A stretch of DNA of 64,000 nt from Escherichia phage CJ20: the sequence record MT533174.1; one strand, 5' to 3'. Of this stretch, positions 1 to 59,685 are shown piece by piece; the stretch's first letter is position 1; the number at the start of each line of letters is the position of its first letter. The notes under the pieces are model-generated. The model saw nothing but the letters and a program-made list of their open reading frames with translations. It was not told where the DNA came from and ran no database searches. The translations under genes were made by a program, and so were the position numbers.

Positions 1-280
<280 letters not shown>

Positions 281-281
<1 letters not shown>

Positions 282-478
282 TGAATAATATCGAAAAGAT
301 TTTTCGTACAATCGAAGAAATTGAAAAACGTAAATGCTTTTTCTTCGGAGTATGGCCTTTAACTGATGGACGTATTGGCCTGGATGTTATGGACTATAAA
401 GATGAAGACAAGGTCGATGGTGGTATTTTTAAATCCGCTCCAGAACTCTTAGCCTTCTTGGAAGAACATTATGTATAA
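281..478 (+). CDS. Hypothetical small early protein
   Basis: 65-aa ORF; ATG overlaps pseT stop (TAATG); same strand as flanking early genes. Confidence 0.45.
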
Positions 479-686
479 CAAACACCATGAAGTTGAAGAA
501 GAAGCTTATAAAGAGCTTCAGAAACTGGTAGGGCAGAATATGTCTCCTGCTCTTATCAACAACCTGGCTGCACTGCGCAATGATATCAACGAACGATACA
601 AGGGCGAATATTATGTTGAATTCGTTCCGCTGACTGAAGTCATTGACCGATTTATCGTTAATGTCAAGGTGCATACCGTCCATTAA
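471..686 (+). CDS. Hypothetical small early protein
   Basis: 71-aa ORF overlapping stop of previous ORF. Confidence 0.45.
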   Translation: MYNKHHEVEEEAYKELQKLVGQNMSPALINNLAALRNDINERYKGEYYVEFVPLTEVIDRFIVNVKVHTVH

Positions 687-711
687 CGCTTTAAAAATTT
701 TATGTTATAAT
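685..711 (+). promoter_or_regulatory. Middle-promoter-like element (MotA-box-like CGCTTTA, 12-nt spacer, TATAAT) followed by GGGGTCTAGG
   Basis: Member of a repeated motif family (see findings). Confidence 0.4.
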
Positions 712-757
712 GGGGTCTAGGTCCTTTGGATACCCCAATAACTAAGCGAGAAAAGAA

Positions 758-1036
758 ATGTTTCCTACATATTCTGAAATTGTTAAAGTAGTTTTTAGTC
801 AGATTGTATCTGATTATCTATACGAAAGCGTCGACGTGTCGACTGAACTAAAGGTGCATGGTCGTTTGTCTGCTATTCTGGAAATCATGTTCCCGGATGC
901 AGTTGATGCAATCACTGTTCAACTCACGCCTGGCGCAGCATTTGCAATTGTTCCATTTAAAATTGATAACCACATTTTGGCTATTTCATGCAAAATGGAC
1001 TTCCAGAAACAAACGGTAGTTGTCGAAGCAATTTAA
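758..1036 (+). CDS. Hypothetical protein
   Basis: 92-aa ORF preceded by MotA-box/TATAAT motif at 685-711. Confidence 0.5.
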   Translation: MFPTYSEIVKVVFSQIVSDYLYESVDVSTELKVHGRLSAILEIMFPDAVDAITVQLTPGAAFAIVPFKIDNHILAISCKMDFQKQTVVVEAI

Positions 1037-1038
1037 GT

Positions 1039-1067
1039 GTTTACTTTCACCACGGATGGTGTATAAT
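1039..1067 (+). promoter_or_regulatory. T4 early-type promoter (GTTTAC -35, 17-nt spacer, TATAAT -10)
   Basis: Motif read directly upstream of ORF 1097. Confidence 0.5.
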
Positions 1068-1096
1068 GAATTTCATCAACACATGAGGAAAACAAA

Positions 1097-1639
1097 ATGA
1101 GTAATTTCTTTGAAGAAGGAAAGTTTTACAAGTTCGCATCTGAAAATGCCAAAAAACAGTTTATTGCCGGAGGCTGGGCAGCTAATTACCAAATTGCCAA
1201 ATACATCGGTATGACTCCGTTTGAAGTGAAAATTGTACCTGATACCGCGAGCGGTGGAAGAAAAGTTTGTGAGATTCGTTTGATTGATGAAAAGAATTTT
1301 GTGGATTTGGCAAAAATATCTGGTGCACAGAACAGGCATCATGGAGCAATGTTTGTTTCTGCTGGTCCATTGTCTGATGAATTTGATTATTTCATCCAAG
1401 CGGAAGTTGGTGTTAAGCCAGAAGTTGAACCTGTGCCAGTGAAACTTGCATCAGTTTGGAAATTGCTTGTGGTTAAAAATGGCAAGATTGAGATTAACTC
1501 TCGTCATGTGTCAAAAGAATATGCGGAAGGCGAAGCAGAGCGTCTGTTAAACCGTGGTACTGTTGAAGATTGCTATATTATCAAAGGCGATATCACAAAA
1601 GCTTCTATCATTAAACAAGTAAAACAGGAGACAATCTGA
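1097..1639 (+). CDS. Hypothetical protein
   Basis: 180-aa ORF; SD GAGGAA upstream; early promoter-like GTTTAC-17-TATAAT at 1039-1067. Confidence 0.55.
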   Translation: MSNFFEEGKFYKFASENAKKQFIAGGWAANYQIAKYIGMTPFEVKIVPDTASGGRKVCEIRLIDEKNFVDLAKISGAQNRHHGAMFVSAGPLSDEFDYFIQAEVGVKPEVEPVPVKLASVWKLLVVKNGKIEINSRHVSKEYAEGEAERLLNRGTVEDCYIIKGDITKASIIKQVKQETI

Positions 1640-1884
1640 TGCTTAGCGAAACCCCAATTACTGTTGAAGAGTTCCACGAAAAAGTGAAGGCATTTGCTCA
1701 AGCGATGATTAATCGCGTATCAGAGCGATTCCCTGCTGCGACTTTGCAAGTTATTCAGGAATCTGCACGCAGTTTTATGATTGTCATTAATCCGAAAATT
1801 ACTCTAAAAGGTGGTGACCAATTGACCCAACTGAAATTGGGTTCTGACGGTCTGGTTGAAGCGCAGCGAGTGTATATTCAATGA
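1639..1884 (+). CDS. Hypothetical protein
   Basis: 81-aa ORF, start overlaps stop of previous ORF. Confidence 0.5.
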   Translation: MLSETPITVEEFHEKVKAFAQAMINRVSERFPAATLQVIQESARSFMIVINPKITLKGGDQLTQLKLGSDGLVEAQRVYIQ

Positions 1885-2216
1885 TGAATTTAATGGATAT
1901 TTTCAAAGAAGCACTTAAAAATGATTTAGGTGACCATCGTAAGTTGGACCCAGAAACAACTGCATTTATCAAAGTAACGCTTGCAAATGATGCTCTGTTT
2001 AAAAGTATTCACCCAAGTAATTATGATGCGGTTGTTATTACAGAAGCTCCTGTAGAAATTGGTGAGCGAATGTTTGGGGTGATTTTTGGCGATAAGAAAA
2101 AACGCTTCAGCGACGGTGATAGTATAATTACAACACATGTTAAGAGCATTACTAAATTGCGACATGAATTATATCGTGTTGAAACTATTAAAACCAATTA
2201 TCTCGTGGTGATGTAA
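1881..2216 (+). CDS. Hypothetical protein
   Basis: 111-aa ORF, translationally coupled to neighbours. Confidence 0.5.
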   Translation: MMNLMDIFKEALKNDLGDHRKLDPETTAFIKVTLANDALFKSIHPSNYDAVVITEAPVEIGERMFGVIFGDKKKRFSDGDSIITTHVKSITKLRHELYRVETIKTNYLVVM

Positions 2217-2798
2217 ATGAAACCAACTACTGTTCTGCAAATCGCATACCTTGTATCTCAAGAATCAAAATGTTGCTCCTGGAAAGTGGGAGCTGTTATT
2301 GAAAAGAATGGCCGCATTATTTCTACAGGGTATAATGGTTCCCCTGCAGGTGGGGTTAACTGTTGCGAGCATGCGGAAGAGCAAGGTTGGTTACTGAATA
2401 AACCTAAACCTGTTCTCGTCCCTGGACATAAGCCAGAATGCGTGAGATTCGGTCAGGTTGACCGTTTTGTATTGGCGAAAGCTCATCGCGAAGAACATTC
2501 TGCATGGTCAAAGAACAACGAAATTCATGCCGAGCTTAATGCGATTCTGTTTGCAGCCAGAATGGGTTCATCAATTGAAGGCGCTACTATGTATGTGACG
2601 CTTTCTCCTTGCCCTGATTGTGCAAAGGCAATTTCTCAATCAGGAATCAAGAAATTGGTTTACTGTGAAACGTATGATAAGAATATTCCTGGTTGGGATG
2701 ATATCCTGAAGAATGCAGGAATTGAAGTGTTCAATGTGCCTAAGCGTAGTCTAGACAAATTGAACTGGGAAAACATTAACGAATTTTGTGGTGAATAA
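2217..2798 (+). CDS. cd: Deoxycytidylate (dCMP) deaminase
   Basis: 193 aa; near-identical along its length to recalled T4 Cd (MKxxTVLQIAYLVSQESKCCSWKVGAVIEKNGRIISTGYNGSPAGG...TLSPCPDCAKAI), zinc-binding CxxC/PCxxC motifs. Confidence 0.92.
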   Translation: MKPTTVLQIAYLVSQESKCCSWKVGAVIEKNGRIISTGYNGSPAGGVNCCEHAEEQGWLLNKPKPVLVPGHKPECVRFGQVDRFVLAKAHREEHSAWSKNNEIHAELNAILFAARMGSSIEGATMYVTLSPCPDCAKAISQSGIKKLVYCETYDKNIPGWDDILKNAGIEVFNVPKRSLDKLNWENINEFCGE

Positions 2799-3031
2799 TG
2801 AAATTTCGTCTAGTTAAATTTTCAGGGCTAAACTCAAAAGGCGAAAGCTTAGTAGCCTATTCAGTAGAATACAAAAAGTACTTTTTCTCTCGCTGGAAAT
2901 CGTACTATAAATCCGAGTGGGTTCGCGCCGAAACGAACTATAAAACGGTGCCTATTCTTGAAAATTGTCACCATCTATTGCGTGCTCTAAAAGAGCGTAA
3001 TGCAACCACTATTAAAACTGTTTTGGAATAA
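2798..3031 (+). CDS. Hypothetical protein (position of T4 31.2)
   Basis: 77-aa ORF between cd and gene 31. Confidence 0.5.
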   Translation: MKFRLVKFSGLNSKGESLVAYSVEYKKYFFSRWKSYYKSEWVRAETNYKTVPILENCHHLLRALKERNATTIKTVLE

Positions 3032-3033
3032 TT

Positions 3034-3333
3034 ATGATTTTAACTGAACAAGAAACAATTCGTCTTCGTGAAAAAGTCAAGACTATCTTGTCTGTTGGCT
3101 TTCATGAAGTTCTGTTTGAAAAAGCAGATGGCAGCGTTCGTCGTATGACTTGTACTCGCGACCTGGACCTGCTTCCATATAAAGAAATCCAGACCCCTGG
3201 ACCAGAAGCTCATAAAGAACCAGTTAGCTATATCCGGGTATTTGATACCAAGCTTAATGAATGGCGTTCATTCTGTTTCAATAAATTGATTTCCGTGAAT
3301 GGGCTACAGACCGAGACTCTGCTTGTCCTTTAA
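3034..3333 (+). CDS. Hypothetical protein (position of T4 31.1)
   Basis: 99-aa ORF between cd and gene 31. Confidence 0.5.
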   Translation: MILTEQETIRLREKVKTILSVGFHEVLFEKADGSVRRMTCTRDLDLLPYKEIQTPGPEAHKEPVSYIRVFDTKLNEWRSFCFNKLISVNGLQTETLLVL

Positions 3334-3358
3334 TGCTTCAAACGGTGCGTGTTATTAT
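3333..3358 (+). promoter_or_regulatory. Middle-promoter-like element upstream of gene 31 (TGCTTCA, 12 nt, TATTAT)
   Basis: MotA-box consensus at about -30 and -10 hexamer. Confidence 0.5.
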
Positions 3359-3388
3359 TAATACATGACCAAACAACATGGATTAAAT

Positions 3389-3712
3389 ATGGAATTACCA
3401 ATTAAAGCAGTAGGTGAATATATTATTTTGGTTTCTGAGCCAAAGCAAGCTGGTGATGAAGAAACTACGGCATCAGGTATCGTTATCGGAAAACTCCATC
3501 AGGGTGAAATCCCAGAGATGTGTGAAGTATTTTCGGTTGGTCCAGATGTTCCTGAAGGTTTCTGTGAAGTAGGTGATTTGACTCCTCTTCCGGTTGGCAA
3601 GATTGCAAACGTTCCACATCCTCTGGTTGCTCTGGGACTTAAGCAGGCTAAAGAAGTTAAGCAGAAATTTGTGACCTGCCATTATAAAGCTGTTCCTTGT
3701 CTTTATAAGTAA
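3389..3712 (+). CDS. 31: Co-chaperonin for GroEL (GroES analogue) needed for major capsid protein folding
   Basis: Strong similarity to recalled T4 gp31 (AVGEYxILVSEP...[14 protein letters not shown]). Start placed at second ATG because a MotA-box/-10 motif at 3333-3358 puts the transcript start near the first ATG (3365). Confidence 0.85.
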
Positions 3713-51954: not shown

Positions 51955-53913
51955 TTATAATGTAATTGGTTCTAAATTAATAGTCGTATAATGTGGACGA
52001 AGGTCATTTTCGAATACGATAAGCGAACCGTCTTTTGTGTAGATGTTGTCCTGGTCTGGACCCGCATACAGTTCGATTGATTGCACTTCAAAACGGTCCG
52101 AAGTCAAACCAATCGCGGCAATGTCCCAGAAGATATAATCAGACCAATAATCGATTTCACCGATTACAAAGTATTGAGTCTGGTCAGCTGGTGCAACCAT
52201 CTTATTAAAGTCATTACCTGTATAAGGTTGAATATTCGCATTAAGCTGAACATCACCTGGACGGAACGGACCAATGACCATTTTACCATCGCCAGAAGAG
52301 TTGCGGTCAGTCGCTACAATACGGACGTTATATGAGGTAATGGTATCGCTTTGGTTTGTTGGAACGAATTCGAATTCGCTTGATTCCACCGACCTATTAG
52401 TATATTGATTATAATATTTAATGCCGGATTCTGGAGTCTTAAAGAAGTTCAAGACCTCGCGAACCATTGTCACCGTTGCAGACGAACCCAAAATACTATG
52501 GTCAGTATTATCCACATAAGTGAGCATTTTCGATTTAGCAAAACTGTGGTTAAACAATTCAACTTCATCAATATAATAGCGGTCAATCTGGTTAATGATT
52601 TGTGCTTGCAACCACTGTTCAGATTCCTGTAATTTATTCAGCGCATAAGACACTTTGATATTGTGTTTAAGGAACAAATAATCAGGAGAAATAACTGATG
52701 GTGTAATTGTCGATACGTTGAACTCACTAAGGTAGTTTTTGATGTCCTCACGCTGCACTGCGGTGAGATACAAGCCCGATTTAGGTTTAACTGATATAAA
52801 CGCATACCCAGGTTTATTTGCGTCCGTAAACGTCTGTACGGCTTGTACGATTGAGCCGAATCTTTCTGATACGAAGGTATCATAATCGGTCCCGGTGACA
52901 GCACGCATCTGCGCTTCACGTTTAACTACAGCCAGTTCACGGATTCGTTCAATATCTTCCGGGTCACCGCCACCATCAGCTCCAACGTAATCTTTATCGT
53001 TATTGTAGTTTTCGGTAATCTTGTCAACAGTGATATAAGTCAAGGAGTCTGCATAGCTGAAATCAACTGCACCATTTGCATCAGCCCCTGATGTGCGAAG
53101 ATATTCGATAACAATTGTCGAATCCTGCACAGGTTTCAATCCACCAATATAGTTGGCTTCCAATACGCCACCGGCAACCGATTTGGTCGATTCCCCTTCA
53201 CCAAAGAAGAATTCAGTATTACCATCAACAGTTTCACGCATATAGAAAATGGTGGATGTTGAGCCAGCATGAACCATTGATTTGTTTGTCCAGTCAGTCC
53301 ACTCGATACCGTTCACAAAAAGCTTAACTTCTTTTCGGTCAATATCCGGGTCACGAATAAGAATAGGTTGTTTCGGGTCATACAAAAGTTCGGTACGAAT
53401 AATGCGGCCTTGTGCAAGGGATACAATCGGCAGATATTGGTTGTTAATGTCTTTTACCGCGATTACATTATCCGTTGTGACAAACATATAAGGGTCAGCT
53501 GATGTATCACGAGCATAAGCCAGGAACTTAGTCCCGCGCGGGATTTCAATATTCGATGGTTGGAGAGCGTGAGAACATGTCAGCATAACCGAAGTCTTTG
53601 CGGCTGAACGTGAAGATGGAAGATAACCATTATCCTGTGCAGCTTGAACAACCGAAGACCTTAGGTTTGCAGTTCCGATAAATGATTCATAAACTGCCGT
53701 ATTAGCAAACTGCTGCATATACAATGTATTATATGCAAGCATATCAATCAGGATATTCATTCGCGAACCTACGAAATCATAATCCTTAAATTCATCCTGG
53801 CTTGATAACCAGTCAATGATGTTCTTTTTAATTTCTTCAAACGTAGCTCCCACAAATACTTTTGGGATAGCGTTAACGGTTCTTGTTAATTGGTAATTCG
53901 TAGGAGTAGCCAT
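51955..53913 (-). CDS. 6: Baseplate wedge subunit
   Basis: 652 aa; strong similarity to recalled T4 gp6 (NYQLTRTxNAIP, YESFxxTANLRSSVVQAAQDNGYLP, KSMVHAGSTSTIxYMRETxDGNTEF). Confidence 0.9.
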   Translation of the reverse strand: MATPTNYQLTRTVNAIPKVFVGATFEEIKKNIIDWLSSQDEFKDYDFVGSRMNILIDMLAYNTLYMQQFANTAVYESFIGTANLRSSVVQAAQDNGYLPSSRSAAKTSVMLTCSHALQPSNIEIPRGTKFLAYARDTSADPYMFVTTDNVIAVKDINNQYLPIVSLAQGRIIRTELLYDPKQPILIRDPDIDRKEVKLFVNGIEWTDWTNKSMVHAGSTSTIFYMRETVDGNTEFFFGEGESTKSVAGGVLEANYIGGLKPVQDSTIVIEYLRTSGADANGAVDFSYADSLTYITVDKITENYNNDKDYVGADGGGDPEDIERIRELAVVKREAQMRAVTGTDYDTFVSERFGSIVQAVQTFTDANKPGYAFISVKPKSGLYLTAVQREDIKNYLSEFNVSTITPSVISPDYLFLKHNIKVSYALNKLQESEQWLQAQIINQIDRYYIDEVELFNHSFAKSKMLTYVDNTDHSILGSSATVTMVREVLNFFKTPESGIKYYNQYTNRSVESSEFEFVPTNQSDTITSYNVRIVATDRNSSGDGKMVIGPFRPGDVQLNANIQPYTGNDFNKMVAPADQTQYFVIGEIDYWSDYIFWDIAAIGLTSDRFEVQSIELYAGPDQDNIYTKDGSLIVFENDLRPHYTTINLEPITL

Positions 53914-53914
53914 T

Positions 53915-55978
53915 TTATTTCCTAGTAGGAGATTCTAAACAAGGTATGCAAATGGAAAGGGATGGAAATGCAATCGTTAAACCGAATATTCCCAGCATCT
54001 TATTAATCCATTGTACCACCTTACTTAATGATAATGTTGATATTTGGTTATACATTGATTTGCACAAGTCTTTCATTGACCTGGAACCATCAGTAAATTC
54101 GTGATATAAAGATTTTGCTTTAGTTACTGAGTTCTCGTATATAACCATGATATCATCTACAGTAGCTCCGAGCATACCGAGAAGTTCTTCCATTTGAGTC
54201 ACAATAGGAAGCTTTTTGAATTCTTCTAAAGCCATATCTAATACATCAGAAACGGAGGTTTGACTTTCGGTAATAGAGTTCTTAATCTGATTATATTTAT
54301 TCTTTAAAAGTTCAAGTGCAGCTTCAGCTTGTGCTAATGCGGCTTCCTTCTGAGCAGTTAGCTCGTCTGTAACTTTTTCGTACATTCCTGAAAGATATTG
54401 TTTAAATTCAATAGCTTGTTTTTGTACTTCTTGCTTTTTGAGCTTAATCTCATTCCACAGATTGAGTGCCTGGGTTTTAAGAGCCTCAATCATTGCATAA
54501 GCTTCGTCTATTTTCTGGTCTACCTTTTCCATAACCATTTGATAAACATCTGATGCTGTGAATCCTGGAAAGTTACCGCTCATTATCATGTCCAGTGGTT
54601 TAACTTGCTTCATCATTTCCTTGACCGCAGTAATAACGCTCCAAACTGGGTTCGGAACTATAGGAGGCATACTCCATATTTGAGCGAGGTCTACACACAG
54701 TTTTGATAATGCAACACCAGCCATAAGCAATTGAGACCAGGCCCAGTCATACAAGTCTGTAATTGCATCAATAAGGTCACGCGAATACATCTTGACGCGT
54801 TCAACCGAATAATCGTATGCCGACCCAATGGCAGAATAAATCGATTGGATGGTTTCTTCTAAATTAAAGTTTTTCCATGCTTCTTTTAATTTCTGTACAC
54901 CATCACCTGAAGTGCAGAGGTCTTCCAGGTCAATAGTCATGCCCATAATAGTAATCGAGGGTAAAAAGCTTTTAAGTAAGTCCCACCCACCGCCAACAAT
55001 ATTCAAGACCTGTGATATGGCATCTTTAAATGCAAGAAAAGCCATTTGCTGAACATATTGACACATAGCAACAGCTGAGTTGCCTAGCTCTTCCATTGCG
55101 ACCGATAGCTTACTATAACCAGAATCGAAGAATTTTTCCCAATCGGTTCCACCAGATGATGGCCATCCAGGGAGCATATCCCAATATAATTTGAATGAAT
55201 TCCTAGATGTATTCCATGAAGCCATAATCGCATTGGTCAATCCGTTGTAAGGGAATTCCGCTGTAAAAGGAACACAGCTTATTGCCCTGGCTCGCCCGGT
55301 TATTTCTGGCGGTAAAGACCCGATGGATACCGGTCCCGGAATCGGAGTTCCTGGGATACTCATATCAACATCTAGATTTAATATCAGTCCAACATAAGTA
55401 CAAGGTTTTGTCTCATAGTACTTCAAATAAGCCCTGCGGGAGTCACCAAGGCCGTTAAAGTTGACATACATATGATAATCAGCCGTAACTGCAATCATCG
55501 TCCTGGGGTCCATTCTGGGGCCTTGTGACGTCCATACACCGCCACAGTTTTCGATGCGATACATATCATATTCAATAGATGTTTTATACAATACAGATTT
55601 TGATAAATCGGCGCCGTACCAATCATTACCGGACAAAAGAGTTGCACCAATCGATTCTACATAATTTTCTAAATCCAATTGCGTAATAAAGAATATTCCG
55701 AGTTTAGCACACCAGATACCTTGACTTGTTCCATCTTCCGGCGGGGGAGGTGCAGGAAAAGTTTCGGACTTATTACCAAATGGATTTTGTGTGTATAAAT
55801 GTGTAGCTAGTGGAATAATCTCGGTATCCCATTCAACGCCATTCCCAGGTTGAATAAAAGCACCTGTTGGGTTATATAATTCCCATTTAACCCGGCGATA
55901 TTCACCGGGTCCTACTGCGTCATCACAGGGACTTGTTACAGTCCCTACCACTTCATCAACTTTATTGTAGTAATTCAT
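53915..55978 (-). CDS. Hypothetical protein of unknown function (~687 aa) inserted between genes 5 and 6
   Basis: Long uninterrupted frame; ATG at 55978 lies 1 nt after gp5 stop (TAAtATG) and its stop lies 1 nt before gp6 ATG; track's 56002 start is GTG. Predicted: Pro/Gly/aromatic-rich N-terminal half, helical C-terminal half with heptad-like segment, C-terminal hydrophobic stretch. Confidence 0.7.
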   Translation of the reverse strand: MNYYNKVDEVVGTVTSPCDDAVGPGEYRRVKWELYNPTGAFIQPGNGVEWDTEIIPLATHLYTQNPFGNKSETFPAPPPPEDGTSQGIWCAKLGIFFITQLDLENYVESIGATLLSGNDWYGADLSKSVLYKTSIEYDMYRIENCGGVWTSQGPRMDPRTMIAVTADYHMYVNFNGLGDSRRAYLKYYETKPCTYVGLILNLDVDMSIPGTPIPGPVSIGSLPPEITGRARAISCVPFTAEFPYNGLTNAIMASWNTSRNSFKLYWDMLPGWPSSGGTDWEKFFDSGYSKLSVAMEELGNSAVAMCQYVQQMAFLAFKDAISQVLNIVGGGWDLLKSFLPSITIMGMTIDLEDLCTSGDGVQKLKEAWKNFNLEETIQSIYSAIGSAYDYSVERVKMYSRDLIDAITDLYDWAWSQLLMAGVALSKLCVDLAQIWSMPPIVPNPVWSVITAVKEMMKQVKPLDMIMSGNFPGFTASDVYQMVMEKVDQKIDEAYAMIEALKTQALNLWNEIKLKKQEVQKQAIEFKQYLSGMYEKVTDELTAQKEAALAQAEAALELLKNKYNQIKNSITESQTSVSDVLDMALEEFKKLPIVTQMEELLGMLGATVDDIMVIYENSVTKAKSLYHEFTDGSRSMKDLCKSMYNQISTLSLSKVVQWINKMLGIFGLTIAFPSLSICIPCLESPTRK

Positions 55979-55979
55979 A

Positions 55980-57767
55980 TTAACCGACCTGTACGTTGCC
56001 ACCAGATACTTTAGCTAATGAACCGCCATCCATATGCACAGTATTTGATGCGTTTAAATTAATGTTCGTCGCTGCAAAATTTAAATCTTGTTCGACATTT
56101 ACATCCATATTTTGAGCATTGATTGTGGCCTTTTGTTTAACGCTTATATCTGCATTCTGGTTGACATTAACTGTTGTATCTTTTTCAACCGTAATATATG
56201 CTTCTTGTTCAACAGTTATATCAGCAGTACCCATAATAACTATTTTAACATTTCCTTTAACAAGCAGAGTTCCATTACCTTCTACAGTTTTGGTTTCATT
56301 CCCTCTGATATGAATACTTTCGTTTCCATCGGTCTGACGACGAACGTTAGCCATATTATAATAGGTTTCATCACCACCAACGTTGACTTTATTATTACCG
56401 CCAACGTAAGTACTCGAATCGCCCTGGGTCATATAATAACCATCAGCCACTGTCTTCGAAGTCTTACGACCATCTGGCGCAACTTCCTCATAGGAACCGG
56501 TCGGATGAATCAGTCGATAACGTTCTTGACCTGGGGTGTTATCGAATTCCTGTACATGCCCGCCTTCGGTTTGCATTGTCTGCACATAAGGATATTCGCC
56601 CTTGTAACTTGATTCTGGCTCTTTAAATAGAATCCTTGTATCTTCTGGAGTCCACGGGTCGGCTGGGTCAGAATTTGTAGGGGCCACAAAGGTTTGAATC
56701 ATCCTATACGAACGCCCTTTAAATTCTATTTCTTTTGGGGCCATAATACCGTATGATTCCATATTACCTGTAAGGATAATCATTGATACCCTTGATGCAC
56801 GCCCTTTAGTTTGGTTAAACCATACTGAATTACGAGCTTCCTCAAATGCCTTTTTATAATCACCTACTAACATTGCGCTAAGCATTCCACGGAATTTAGT
56901 TAATCCGCCTAATCCCATTTGGAAAGCCATGTTTTCAAGAGCCATTTGTCTCGAACGGTTTTCTTTATTATAAACCGGACCAACAACACTGTGTTTGCCT
57001 ATATCATTTTGAACTTTTTTAAGGTCTTCTTGGAATAACTTAGAAGCCTCGTCCATTGATATTGCACCAGGGTTACCTTTAACTTCACGGCCTATTTGAT
57101 TAGATAATATTTTGTTTATCTGATTCATATCTCTAATAGGTTGTGGTGCAATTAAGTGGCCTATACCTATAGTTGGATATCCTTCGGTGTCCCAATATAC
57201 CTTCAGTCGAAGACCTTCATCACGGTGAAGCATATTTTCAATTGTGAAATTAGGGTTATCATCTGGTTTAACCTGACTCAAATCAAGACCATCAGGGTTA
57301 ATACCAAGGTCAAGGTTTGCATCCTGAATTACGTTCGAAGTTGCATCATAACCGACTTCACCGCCACGGTTAAGCGCCGCCGCATCATTACCAACATAAA
57401 GTGGGTATTGCCCTGTGGGGTCAGAGAAACCTTCGTTAGGATTTGCTTTTTGTCTTGAGGCTGAACCATACGTACCAATAACAAGACCGTTGAGCTTCCA
57501 CTTGTCTAAAAAGTGACCATATACTTGAGTACCTGGGACCATACCAGTCATGGCAGTTTGAATCCCAGAAACTGATGCAGATGATGTTGGCATCAATACA
57601 GACATCCAAGGAAGGTCTTCGGTTCTGATACCTTTAACAGGCCCTTGTGCTTTCTCATATGGATGCATACCCCATACACGAACACGAACACGACCTTGCT
57701 GAAGTGGGTCCATTCGGTCTTCGACAACCCCGACGAACCAACTTACATTATCTGACATGTTAATCAT
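55980..57767 (-). CDS. 5: Baseplate hub subunit and tail lysozyme (cell-puncturing spike)
   Basis: 595 aa; lysozyme-domain motif YWDTEGYPTIGIGHLI and repetitive C-terminal beta-helix (VNVxQxxxISV repeats) as in T4 gp5. Confidence 0.93.
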   Translation of the reverse strand: MINMSDNVSWFVGVVEDRMDPLQQGRVRVRVWGMHPYEKAQGPVKGIRTEDLPWMSVLMPTSSASVSGIQTAMTGMVPGTQVYGHFLDKWKLNGLVIGTYGSASRQKANPNEGFSDPTGQYPLYVGNDAAALNRGGEVGYDATSNVIQDANLDLGINPDGLDLSQVKPDDNPNFTIENMLHRDEGLRLKVYWDTEGYPTIGIGHLIAPQPIRDMNQINKILSNQIGREVKGNPGAISMDEASKLFQEDLKKVQNDIGKHSVVGPVYNKENRSRQMALENMAFQMGLGGLTKFRGMLSAMLVGDYKKAFEEARNSVWFNQTKGRASRVSMIILTGNMESYGIMAPKEIEFKGRSYRMIQTFVAPTNSDPADPWTPEDTRILFKEPESSYKGEYPYVQTMQTEGGHVQEFDNTPGQERYRLIHPTGSYEEVAPDGRKTSKTVADGYYMTQGDSSTYVGGNNKVNVGGDETYYNMANVRRQTDGNESIHIRGNETKTVEGNGTLLVKGNVKIVIMGTADITVEQEAYITVEKDTTVNVNQNADISVKQKATINAQNMDVNVEQDLNFAATNINLNASNTVHMDGGSLAKVSGGNVQVG

Positions 57768-58366
57768 AGAGCCTTCTCCATTTCACGGATAAGCGCAGAA
57801 ATAAATGACTCAATATCTTCTGGGTCAATTATTTTTATTTCGCGTTTGTATTCATTTTTACGAATAGCATCTTCATAGATATCCACTGCAGCCAATGGGC
57901 CTTCGTATTGTGGATATAATTTGTTCTTATCACCTTTATCGTACCAGGTGTATGGATTATCAGGATAAGAAACAAGATTCCAGAATTTTTCACCATCTTC
58001 ATTCACATGATAAAGGACCTGGTTACCACCTATATTCGAATAGCGTTGAATTGATGCCTGATACGATGATTCTTGTGAACATATCCAACCATAATAAGGG
58101 TCATAGATATTATTAAGCATAAGGAGAACCCAATAGAGTTGCGTGTTTCCATAGAGCTGGTATGCAAGTTCTTCAGGTCTCGGAGCTCCGGCGATGTAAT
58201 ATGTTTTTGGTGTATAATTAACCGCAACCTTATCAAAATAGGCACGATAGTTTCTGAAGATGTCAGTCATTGGGATGCTTAAGACATCTTCTTTCGTTAA
58301 TGATGCCGAGTTTTTTCTGATTGTTTTAGCATCATAATCAATTGGGTTAAAAAATGAAAAAAGCAT
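57764..58366 (-). CDS. 53: Baseplate wedge subunit
   Basis: Start at internal ATG 58366 (SD GGAGG) matches recalled T4 gp53 N-terminus MLFxFFxPIEYxAKT...IPMTDIFRNY. Confidence 0.85.
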   Translation of the reverse strand: MLFSFFNPIDYDAKTIRKNSASLTKEDVLSIPMTDIFRNYRAYFDKVAVNYTPKTYYIAGAPRPEELAYQLYGNTQLYWVLLMLNNIYDPYYGWICSQESSYQASIQRYSNIGGNQVLYHVNEDGEKFWNLVSYPDNPYTWYDKGDKNKLYPQYEGPLAAVDIYEDAIRKNEYKREIKIIDPEDIESFISALIREMEKAL

Positions 58367-58414: not shown

Positions 58415-58864
58415 ATGGCATACTCCGGGAAATTTAAGCCCACCAATATAGAAAAATATAAGGGCGACTGGAAGAAAATACAATACCGGTCAAGCTGGGA
58501 GGCGTGGTTGATGAGATGGCTCGACAACCATCCGAACGTTGTTCAATGGGGCTCTGAGACTGTCATTATCCCCTACTTTAGCAATGCCGATGGTAAAAAG
58601 CGCAGATATTATATGGATTTCTGGGTTAAGTTTGATACGGGACAACAGTTCTTTTTCGAAGTTAAGCCATTAAAAGAAACAAGACCTCCAACCAAACCGG
58701 CCAATAATACCACTGCGAGTAAAAAGAGATTTATTAATGAGATGTACACCTGGAGCGTTAACTCTGACAAATGGAAAGCTGCGCAAGCTACCGCTGATAA
58801 GATGGGTATAACGTTCAGGATAATCACTGAAAACTCACTGAAAAAATTAGGATGGAAAGGATGA
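58415..58864 (+). CDS. 4: Head completion protein
   Basis: 149 aa; position divergent from gp53 as in T4; late promoter TATAAATA at 58379-58386. Confidence 0.8.
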
Positions 58865-59685
58865 GTATTTTTACATTTATCAATGAATCTGCAGATAAAC
58901 CAGGTCCGAAACCCAGTAAATCCGAACAACAATGGGTTGAAATAGGGGTTGAATTTTATACAGCAAAAGAAAAGGGAATGACCTCGAAGAAGTTTGCTGA
59001 AGAGAAAGGAATCAATTATTCGACCTTTACCAAAAGCATGTCAAGATACCATTCGAGAATTCAGACTGCTTATAAAGTATCCAAGCTCAAAAAGAAACCT
59101 GCTGGTAAACTTACGAAGGCTGAACGCCAGCTGATAATGGTGAATAGTTTTAGGAAGAGCATAAGAGATAAGATTGCTAACGAAGGTGCAGCAAGCAACA
59201 CCAAATCTGCCAGATGGTTTGCTGAGACAATTAAGAAATCAGTTCGCGGTCACGTAACGGCTAAACCTCAACCAGGTAAGATTTATGCTTATATCTATGA
59301 TGCAAAGCATAAGGATACTCTTCCGTACTGGGACAAATACCCGTTAATCATTTATCTTGGGCTAGGTAAGCATAATTTGATGTATGGTTTGAACTTGCAC
59401 TATATTCCACCGAAGGCACGCCAAGAGTTCCTTGAGGAACTTCTTAAGCAATATGCTAATACTCCTACGATTACGAACAAGACTCATCTGAAGATTGATT
59501 GGTCAAAGGTGAAGGGATTTAAAGGGGCTGACCAGATGATTAAAGCATATATACCTGGCAATATAAAAGGTACTATCACTGAAATCAAGCCCAGCGACTG
59601 GGCAAACGTTGTTATGCTTCCGTTGCAAGCTTTTTACAGCAAAGGCAAAAAATTCTCTGCACAAAAAGTTTGGAGAAATTCATAA
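58861..59685 (+). CDS. 2: DNA end protector protein
   Basis: 274 aa from ATG overlapping gp4 stop (ATGA); same length as T4 gp2. Confidence 0.8.

What the first reader, a model, noticed from the sequence alone, without database searches (positions are those of the whole stretch)
53915..56002. Large unknown ORF (~687 aa) wedged between spike gene 5 and wedge gene 6, where T4 carries 5.1-5.4
In T4 the 5-6 interval holds small genes 5.1, 5.3 and 5.4 (the PAAR-like tip of the gp5 spike). Here the interval is one ~2.06-kb frame, coupled at both ends (gp5 TAA-t-ATG; its TAA 1 nt before gp6 ATG), so it is almost certainly co-expressed late with the baseplate proteins. I see no PAAR-type motif and cannot match it to any T4 protein I recall. 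Its make-up (Pro/Gly/aromatic-rich N-terminal half, helical C-terminal half with heptad-like stretch, hydrophobic C-terminal segment LGIFGLTIAFPSLSICIPCL) would fit a virion- or spike-associated, possibly membrane-interacting, protein or ejected effector. The region looks more AT-rich than the flanking genes by eye, hinting at horizontal acquisition. This is the best candidate for something undescribed in the window.
Basis: partly seen in the sequence, partly recalled or inferred. Interest (0 to 1): 0.8.

Follow-up and report, generated by a model that had tools for sequence, protein, structure and literature searches.

The report
Non-PAAR spike-tip protein gene of T4-like phage
The large unknown gene between the tail-spike gene 5 and baseplate gene 6 is real, and is the Dhakavirus copy of a protein (RB43 orf205w) that a 2025 preprint proposed as an unusual 77-kDa tip on the cell-puncturing spike; here it proves to be swapped between phages as one unit with the end of the spike gene.

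Summary
The ORF is real: minus strand, ATG 55978 to TAA 53915, 687 aa, with one nucleotide between it and gp5 upstream and one between it and gp6 downstream. The window is a Dhakavirus (JS98/Bp7/SP18 type, 99% nt identity).

The protein is not an orphan. It belongs to PHROG 5296 and is found full-length in 213 of 215 matching phage records, next to gp5 in every locus inspected. It is 43% identical over 99% of its length to RB43 orf205w. A 2025 bioRxiv preprint (Mattenberger…Leiman, Belin) proposes orf205w as a non-PAAR spike tip that replaces T4 gp5.4.

- No gp5.4, 5.1 or 5.3 homolog is detectable in the window or in the sister genome Bp7.
- The last ~60 residues of gp5 co-segregate with the tip type in 14 of 14 loci: the tail ends …GG(N/T)VxVG with this ORF and …DGSRIxxG with gp5.4.
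- Nucleotide breakpoints in two independent phage pairs show that the exchanged unit is the last 76–89 codons of gp5 plus the whole ORF.

"Spike-associated" is supported, "undescribed" is not. How the protein works after penetration is still open.

The parts
53915..55978 (-). 687-aa ORF (stop codon included), ortholog of RB43 orf205w and the putative non-PAAR spike-tip protein
55100..55978 (-). N-terminal alpha/beta domain (aa 1-293). Residues 20-200 are modelled at pLDDT ~95 and match no known fold. C18 and C193 are invariant, and the motif NDWYGADLSKS...YxxENxGG is conserved.
54557..55099 (-). Conserved helical core (aa 294-474). It includes the most conserved loops, NIVGGGW, SMPPxVPNPxW and SGNFPGFT, and a moderately hydrophobic helix at 417-435.
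54149..54556 (-). Long antiparallel helical hairpin / coiled coil (aa 475-610). It is the least conserved part and has the lowest GC. It is the source of the weak tape-measure and apolipoprotein-like matches.
53939..53995 (-). Conserved hydrophobic C-terminal segment (aa 662-680). It is the only stretch above a transmembrane-like hydropathy threshold. AlphaFold models it as a buried beta-strand.
55980..57767 (-). gp5 baseplate hub / tail lysozyme spike (595 aa)
55980..56207 (-). Variant C-terminal beta-helix tail of gp5 (last ~76 codons, ending ...SGGNVQVG). This type of tail co-occurs with this ORF family.
53925..56207 (-). Exchanged spike-tip cassette: the gp5 tail plus the whole ORF. Homology to the gp5.4-carrying Gaprivervirus VR25 is lost over this stretch and resumes on both sides.
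51955..53913 (-). gp6 baseplate wedge gene. Its ATG lies 1 nt after the ORF stop codon.
57764..58366 (-). gp53 baseplate wedge gene, first gene of the co-oriented block. A late-promoter-like TATAAATg lies at 58382-58375.

Best explanation
The ORF encodes a 77-kDa, non-PAAR spike-tip protein. It is made late from the gp53-gp5-ORF-gp6 transcript. It most likely binds the flat C-terminal platform of a matching variant of the gp5 beta-helix, and so forms the membrane-attacking apex of the tail in place of T4 gp5.4.

On sheath contraction it would be driven through the outer membrane and released with the spike into the periplasm. This step is inferred from the P2 and T4 results in the preprint. 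Its helical C-terminal two-thirds, with an amphipathic hairpin and a conserved hydrophobic C-terminus, would then be free to act on the envelope or the inner membrane to help DNA entry. That last step is speculation.

Shown here: orthology to RB43 orf205w, mutual exclusivity with gp5.4, co-inheritance and co-transfer with the gp5 tail, the domain architecture, and the lack of a fold match for the N-terminal domain.

Inferred: presence in the virion at the tip, stoichiometry, which part contacts gp5, and any membrane activity.
For: 1. Orthology. The ORF is 42.9% identical over 99% of its length to RB43ORF205w and matches PHROG 5296 end to end.

2. Prior work. The preprint PMC12407873 reports that RB43, RB16 and Lw1 lack gene 5.4, that orf205w occupies the 5.1-5.4 locus, and that a 17.7 A map of the RB43 baseplate shows a larger tip density into which an orf205w model can be fitted.

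3. Mutual exclusivity with gp5.4.
- There is no gp5.4 hit in the window or in the Bp7 genome.
- Five diverse gp5.4 queries hit only gp5.4-type loci, and the ORF hits only ORF-type loci.
- gp5.4 is otherwise found in 1471 phage records.

4. The gp5 tail co-segregates with the tip type in 14 of 14 loci.
- The nine ORF-type spikes (seven, two metagenomic) end with (S/T)GG(N/T)V(Q/S/V)VG.
- The five gp5.4-type spikes end with DGSRI(D/N)(I/L/V)G.
- This is independent of the phylogeny of the rest of gp5. PD112 gp5 is 96% identical to T4 in the body but 24% in the tail. The window gp5 is 88% identical to VR25 in the body but 27% in the tail.

5. Nucleotide breakpoints.
- Window against VR25: homology stops 228 nt before the gp5 stop codon and resumes 10 nt before the ORF stop codon.
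- PD112 against T4: homology stops 266 nt before the gp5 stop codon and resumes 9 nt before the ORF stop codon.
- The swapped piece of gp5 corresponds to about T4 residues 502-575. That lies within the gp5-beta fragment (484-575) that the preprint used to bind gp5.4.

6. Linkage is to gp5, not gp6. In LPCS28 the ORF follows gp5 although gp6 is elsewhere. In L019 it follows a lysozyme-less gp5.

7. Structure. The AlphaFold model is confident (pLDDT 87.2, pTM 0.78).
Against: There is no direct evidence that the protein is in the virion.
- The only virion proteomics I found for a phage likely to carry the gene (Morganella MP1, PMC5384007) lists the gp6 homolog gp147 but nothing between gp141 and gp147. 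I did not confirm that MP1 has the gene. gp5 and gp53 were missed too, so the result is uninformative rather than negative.
- The preprint's authors failed to co-express orf205w with gp5-beta. Their map is 17.7 A with C6 symmetry imposed, and their fit is only described as 'can fit'.

A 77-kDa, largely helical protein is an odd shape for a sharpening tip. There is no metal-site signature like that of gp5.4 or P2 gpV: no invariant His, only C18 and C193 invariant. Co-transfer with the gp5 tail would also be expected of a dedicated folding or assembly factor for that tail.
Confidence: 0.7

Rival explanations
1. It is a non-virion assembly factor or chaperone, needed to fold or trimerise the variant gp5 beta-helix tail or to load the spike into the hub. 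It would act like T4 gp51 or gp57A and be absent from the finished particle.
For: It is co-inherited and co-transferred with the gp5 tail, which fits a dedicated helper equally well. No proteomic detection was found. Co-expression with gp5-beta failed for the preprint's authors.
Against: The RB43 tip density is larger than in T4, and no other gene is a candidate for it. These genomes then have no tip protein at all, although gp5.4 is otherwise conserved across 1471 records. 687 aa with a confidently folded two-part architecture is large for a chaperone.
Confidence: 0.1
2. It is an ejected pilot or channel protein carried inside the hub or tube lumen, tape-measure-like, rather than on the outside tip. 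It would be released into the periplasm to form or prime the inner-membrane conduit for DNA.
For: - It gives weak matches to tape-measure PHROGs (E 5e-4 to 0.08).
- The only out-of-family hits among 1.84 billion representatives are tape-measure proteins with PF10145, aligned to the helical region 470-670.
- It has a conserved hydrophobic C-terminus.
Confidence: 0.12
3. It is a hitch-hiking accessory gene, for example for superinfection exclusion, anti-defence or a host-range moron. It would have landed in the variable 5-6 interval, where T4 carries the homing endonuclease segC, and have no structural role.
For: The 5-6 interval is a known variable spot holding segC or HNH genes. Its codon usage is atypical.
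Against: - It is full-length in 213 of 215 records across at least eight genera or groups.
- It is translationally coupled on both sides.
- It has no nuclease or defence domain.
- It excludes gp5.4 and always comes with a particular gp5 tail.
Confidence: 0.04

Closest known systems
RB43 orf205w (RB43ORF205w, AAX78727), the putative spike-tip protein in bioRxiv 10.1101/2025.08.28.672839
   Same: It is a full-length ortholog: 43% identity over 99% of the length. It occupies the same position directly after gp5, and the genome likewise lacks gene 5.4. The architecture is the same, an alpha/beta N-terminus followed by an all-helical rest. The gp5 tail is of the same type (...TGGTVQVG).
   Different: The window's phage belongs to Tevenvirinae (Dhakavirus), far closer to T4 than RB43 is (gp5 body 64% against about 50% identity to T4). 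In this lineage the gene therefore sits in a T4-like backbone as a visibly exchanged cassette. RB43's own assignment is tentative, resting on a 17.7 A map with no biochemistry.
T4 gp5.4 / PAAR-repeat spike-tip proteins (Pfam PF05488; PDB 4KU0)
   Same: The genomic slot is the same, between gene 5 and gene 6. The presumed role is the same: capping the blunt end of the trimeric gp5 beta-helix. Each kind of tip is paired with its own kind of gp5 C-terminus.
P2 gpV / phi92 gp138 iron-loaded apex, and 'evolved' T6SS PAAR proteins with C-terminal effector extensions
   Same: The concept is the same: the tip of a contractile-injection spike is a modular, exchangeable element, and it can carry extra mass into the periplasm.
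   Different: There is no HxH motif. The tip is not fused to the spike. No toxin or effector domain is recognisable. The relation is by analogy only.
Phage tape-measure proteins (Pfam PF10145 PhageMin_Tail; T4 gp29)
   Same: It has long amphipathic helical segments and a hydrophobic stretch, and gives weak profile matches. Some automatic annotations of homologs call it 'tail length tape measure protein'.
   Different: It has no tape-measure domain, and the matches are limited to the coiled-coil region. The phage has its own gp29. The gene is next to gp5, not next to the tube and hub genes. The automatic 'tape measure' and 'SbcC-like' labels are almost certainly coiled-coil artefacts.

Membership tests
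orf205w-like spike-tip family (PHROG 5296) | Full-length sequence homology to RB43 orf205w / PHROG 5296 | tested here: met
   PHROG 5296 matches residues 1-682 with E=0. tblastn to RB43ORF205w gives 42.9% identity over 99% of the length.
orf205w-like spike-tip family (PHROG 5296) | The gene lies immediately downstream of gene 5 and occupies the T4 5.1-5.4 slot | tested here: met
   Seen in the window and in Bp7, RB43, KP15, Pm5461, PD112, KM16, LPCS28, L018 and L019.
orf205w-like spike-tip family (PHROG 5296) | The genome lacks a gene 5.4 (PAAR) ortholog | tested here: met
   tblastn with T4 gp5.4 finds nothing at E<1 in the Bp7 genome or at E<10 in the window. Five gp5.4 variants find nothing in eight ORF-type loci. 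Only sequence-level detection was used, and a 706-nt gap in Bp7 was not searched.
orf205w-like spike-tip family (PHROG 5296) | The partner spike has the variant, one-strand-longer gp5 C-terminus | tested here: met
   The window's gp5 ends ...KVSGGNVQVG. The same tail type is present in all nine ORF-type spikes and absent from all five gp5.4-type spikes.
orf205w-like spike-tip family (PHROG 5296) | An alpha/beta N-terminal part followed by an all-helical remainder | tested here: met
   AlphaFold model with pLDDT 87.2: strands and helices up to about residue 290, helices from 294 to 664, and a C-terminal strand.
orf205w-like spike-tip family (PHROG 5296) | Physically located at the tip of the gp5 spike in the virion | not testable with these tools
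   The only support is the low-resolution RB43 map in the preprint. No proteomic detection was found.
PAAR-repeat / gp5.4 spike tips (PF05488) | PAAR repeats detectable by profile | tested here: not met
   There is no PAAR hit in Pfam even at E<=10, and no similarity to T4 gp5.4.
PAAR-repeat / gp5.4 spike tips (PF05488) | Conical beta-structure PAAR fold | tested here: not met
PAAR-repeat / gp5.4 spike tips (PF05488) | Buried metal site formed by conserved His and Cys | tested here: not met
   There is no invariant His. Only C18 and C193 are invariant in 64 of 64 sequences. A different kind of metal site or a disulfide cannot be excluded.
Tape-measure proteins (PF10145 and relatives) | Tape-measure domain, and being the genome's only tape measure, encoded beside the tube and hub genes | tested here: not met
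   There is no PF10145 hit. Only weak matches occur, restricted to the coiled coil. Bp7 encodes a canonical gp29 elsewhere.
ClyA-type alpha-pore-forming toxins / T3SS translocators (YaxB, IpaB) | A specific structural match above the generic coiled-coil background | tested here: inconclusive

The most novel reading that the evidence does not exclude
The spike tip of T4-like phages would be a swappable 'penetration module', made of the gp5 beta-helix end plus its tip gene. The orf205w-type tip would be more than a passive sharpener: a self-delivered, membrane-active protein. A domain with no detectable structural relative would clamp it to the spike. Once in the periplasm, the apolipoprotein/tape-measure-like amphipathic helices and the hydrophobic C-terminus would open onto or insert into the inner membrane to nucleate the DNA conduit. 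That would make it the first phage spike tip with an effector-like second function. It would also be directly testable, by moving the 2.3-kb cassette between T4 and its 96%-identical relative PD112.
Probability: 0.2. Interest if true: 0.8.

Novelty: new member of a known kind. Interest (0 to 1): 0.55.

Why it matters
How contractile tails cross the envelope after the outer membrane is punctured is still unresolved. The tip is the first part of the virion to touch the membranes. T4's own tip (gp5.4) was characterised only recently: it is dispensable for assembly but matters for fitness and for infecting deep-rough LPS mutants.

A second, unrelated tip seven times larger is present in more than 200 sequenced phages of Klebsiella, Enterobacter, Cronobacter, Citrobacter, Proteus and E. 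coli. Many of these are therapy candidates. Spike tips are therefore not all PAAR-like.

That gives independent genomic support for a physical gp5-tip pairing. It also defines an exact construct for cassette-swap experiments in T4. It should also correct the misleading 'tape measure', 'SbcC-like' and 'hypothetical' annotations.

Tried and rejected
- Fused or expanded 5.1/5.3/5.4. Rejected: no similarity by tblastn, no PAAR profile hit, and no PAAR-like fold.
- Tape measure. Rejected as membership (see the membership test). The weak PHROG and TMP hits are confined to the coiled coil, and gp29 is present.
- PDB sequence search, NCBIfam and Pfam gave only coiled-coil noise.
- Virion proteomics in the literature:
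  - The MP1 Morganella table lacks gp5, gp53 and any gene between gp141 and gp147, so it is uninformative.
  - The ValerieMcCarty Klebsiella phages appear to be JD18-like Jiaodavirus relatives, a group that carries gp5.4 in PKO111, so the paper is not relevant.
  - The slopekvirus preprint has no proteomics.
  - Other searches were unproductive.
- AT-richness as a sign of horizontal transfer. Rejected for the ORF as a whole and replaced by breakpoint and codon-usage evidence.
- An apparent natural N-domain deletion in phage phT4A. Rejected: it is a run of N in the assembly.
- RNA families and repeats in the region: none.
Full report
**1. Observation**

The window carries the T4-type block gp53, gp5, X, gp6, gp7 on the minus strand. 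X is listed mechanically as 53915..56002, 695 aa from a GTG. The biological start is the ATG at 55978, giving 687 aa. This is how the 99.3%-identical gene of phage Bp7 is annotated (F392_gp255). The alignment of 61 family members also begins there (MNY…).

The gp5 stop TAA is followed by one nucleotide and then the ATG. The ORF's TAA is followed by one nucleotide and then the gp6 ATG. No terminator-like or promoter-like signals above the shuffled expectation lie inside the block. The only late-promoter-like element, TATAAATg, sits 12 nt upstream of gp53. Co-transcription and translational coupling with the baseplate genes is therefore the natural reading.

The composition claims hold. The N-terminal part is rich in Pro, Gly and aromatic residues, the rest is helical, and the C-terminal stretch is hydrophobic. 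The AT-richness claim does not hold for the gene as a whole. Its GC is 0.401 against a window mean of 0.412, the 28th percentile. Only the last third is lower, at 0.33–0.365.

**2. What it is not**

T4 gp5.1, gp5.3 and gp5.4 have no tblastn match in the window or in the sister genome Bp7, which I fetched almost completely. T4 gp5.4 is otherwise found in 1471 phage records, from Tequatrovirus to Aeromonas, Acinetobacter, Vibrio and Campylobacter phages.

Pfam, NCBIfam and the PDB sequence search give only sub-threshold coiled-coil matches in residues 470–660. Bp7 has a canonical gp29 tape measure elsewhere. The 'tape measure' and 'SbcC-like' labels that some automatic annotations give to homologs are therefore most likely coiled-coil artefacts.

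**3. What it is**

The protein matches PHROG 5296 (function unknown) end to end. tblastn finds it in 215 phage records, 213 of them nearly full-length. They include:
- Dhakavirus;
- the PD112/G8 group, which is classified as Tequatrovirus;
- Moonvirus KM16;
- Bragavirus (Proteus phages);
- Nanhuvirus;
- Pseudotevenvirus (RB16, RB43, Lw1);
- Slopekvirus (KP15, Miro);
- many Cronobacter, Citrobacter and Enterobacter phages.

An exhaustive HMM search of 1.84 billion cluster representatives finds only eight full-length 50%-identity clusters. Beyond the family it finds nothing except weak hits of the helical region to tape-measure proteins. This is a narrow family specific to T4-like phages.

The RB43 hit is RB43ORF205w. 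[quoted passage not shown]
- RB43, RB16 and Lw1 lack gene 5.4.
- The 5.1–5.4 locus is occupied by orf205w, about 690 residues, α/β for residues 1–220 and helical thereafter.
- A 17.7 Å map of the RB43 baseplate shows a larger tip than in T4.
- Co-expression with the gp5 β-helix fragment failed, and their AlphaFold model had low confidence.

**4. New evidence bearing on that proposal**

(a) *Tail–tip co-segregation.* I extracted gp5 from seven phages with this ORF and five with gp5.4 and compared the body of the protein with its last 60 residues. The tails fall into two classes that follow the tip gene, not the phylogeny of the gp5 body.
- PD112 gp5 is 96% identical to T4 in the body and 24% in the tail. 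Its tail is 88% identical to the window's tail.
- The window's gp5 is 88% identical to Gaprivervirus VR25 (gp5.4-type) in the body and 27% in the tail.
- All ORF-type spikes end …(S/T)GG(N/T)VQVG. All gp5.4-type spikes end …DGSRI(D/N)xG.
- The two most divergent family members, both from metagenomes, follow spikes that end …FTGGTVSVG and …FTGGTVVVG. The second of these spikes is a 389-aa gp5 without a lysozyme domain.
- In total, 14 of 14 loci fit the rule.

(b) *Breakpoints*.
- Window against VR25: nucleotide homology (87%) stops 228 nt before the gp5 stop codon and resumes (95.6%) 10 nt before the ORF's stop codon.
- PD112 against T4: homology (96%) stops 266 nt before the gp5 stop codon and resumes 9 nt before the ORF's stop codon.
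- Two independent lineage pairs thus exchange the same unit: the last 76–89 codons of gp5 plus everything up to gp6.
- In T4 numbering the swapped spike segment is about residues 502–575. That lies inside the 484–575 fragment that the preprint used as the gp5.4-binding platform.

(c) *Linkage.* In LPCS28 the ORF stays behind gp5 although gp6 is not downstream.

(d) *Codon usage.* The ORF has the lowest codon-usage correlation with the rest of the window of any genuine ORF of 200 aa or more: 0.44, against 0.64–0.93 for ORFs longer than 500 aa. This fits either foreign origin or low expression.

Together these results argue that the ORF product and the end of the gp5 β-helix form a co-adapted pair. 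That is what a tip protein requires. A dedicated assembly factor for that tail would leave the same genomic signature, so it remains the main rival.

**5. Structure**

With the 61-sequence alignment, AlphaFold2 gives a confident monomer model (pLDDT 87.2, pTM 0.78).
- Residues 1 to about 290 form a mixed α/β domain.
- Residues 294–664 are helical. They include a very long antiparallel hairpin (475–529 and 538–575).
- Residues 673–682 form a C-terminal β-strand.

Modelled alone, residues 20–200 keep a pLDDT of about 95, while 200–293 lose confidence. This suggests that 200–293 pack against the helical part.

Conservation:
- It is highest in the N-domain motif NDWYGADLSKS…YxxENxGG.
- It is also high in the loops NIVGGGW, SMPPxVPNPxW and SGNFPGFT, and in residues 641–660.
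- It is lowest in the coiled coil.
- C18 and C193 are invariant in 64 of 64 sequences, and no His is invariant. The metal site of gp5.4 (three His plus one Cys) is therefore not reproduced. A disulfide or a different site is possible, but that is inference.

The only segment above a transmembrane-like hydropathy threshold is 662–680, with a score of 1.87 and a family mean of 1.65. In the model it is a buried strand.

**6. Mechanism**

Most likely (about 0.7): a late-expressed virion protein caps the variant gp5 β-helix and forms the apex that meets the outer membrane. By analogy with P2 gpV, which is found in the periplasm after infection (preprint), it would be released into the periplasm with the spike.

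What the roughly 400 helical residues do there is unknown. The amphipathic, apolipoprotein/tape-measure-like character and the conserved hydrophobic end make a membrane- or envelope-directed role plausible. This is speculation, and I give it about 0.2 as a specific claim.

The rivals are an assembly chaperone (0.10), an internal ejected pilot protein (0.12) and a hitch-hiking accessory gene (0.04).

**7. Novelty and score**

The gene family and its proposed role are already in the literature as a preprint. This is therefore a new member of a known, very recently proposed kind, not an undescribed entity.

It remains interesting for three reasons. The assignment is unproven. The N-domain fold has no detectable relative. 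The cassette-level co-transfer shown here is, as far as the searched literature goes, new, and it gives a direct experimental handle. Interest: 0.55.

Noticed in passing
L010 (NC_054928, phage PD112) 2234-4528, compared with T4 L003: PD112 (with G8 and BYEP01) is classified in the genus Tequatrovirus. Its flanks are ~96% nucleotide-identical to T4, yet it carries the orf205w-type cassette in place of 5.1-segC-5.3-5.4. Both tip types therefore exist within one genus.
   Followed up: yes
L012 (NC_055712, phage phT4A) about 3400-3500: The homolog is annotated as only 485 aa and seemed to lack the N-terminal domain. The cause is a run of N (an assembly gap) just after the start of the gene, not a natural truncation.
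   Followed up: yes
L013 (OM638103, Cronobacter phage LPCS28) 708-4855: The ORF follows gp5, but gp6 is not downstream. Small opposite-strand ORFs follow instead. The linkage is therefore to gp5 rather than to gp6.
   Followed up: partly
L019 (JGI metagenome contig) 219-3624: The most divergent family member (P0065, 743 aa) follows a 389-aa gp5-like spike. That spike has the OB domain and the beta-helix but no lysozyme domain, and still ends ...FTGGTVVVG.
   Followed up: partly
BFVD entry A0A7T3TJK5: This is a 340-aa viral protein that matches only the N-terminal domain (39% identity). It could be a split gene or a fragment. If it is a real split, the two halves of the protein are separable modules.
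   Followed up: no
window 53915-55978, residues C18 and C193: Two cysteines are invariant in 64 of 64 family sequences, including the 31%-identity outliers. C235 and C677 are 94% conserved. This may indicate a disulfide or a metal site, which could not be checked without model coordinates.
   Followed up: partly
window 58852-59685 (+): The gp2-like DNA end protector ORF also has a low codon-usage correlation with the rest of the window (0.45), similar to the tip ORF.
   Followed up: no
window 55979-56002 (-): The mechanical ORF extends 8 codons upstream to a GTG inside the end of gp5. The extension is not conserved in homologs.
   Followed up: yes
T4 L003 1982-3356, compared with window 55980-57767: T4 carries oriE and the small repEA and repEB genes on the opposite strand inside gene 5. 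I did not check whether the window's gene 5 keeps them.
   Followed up: no
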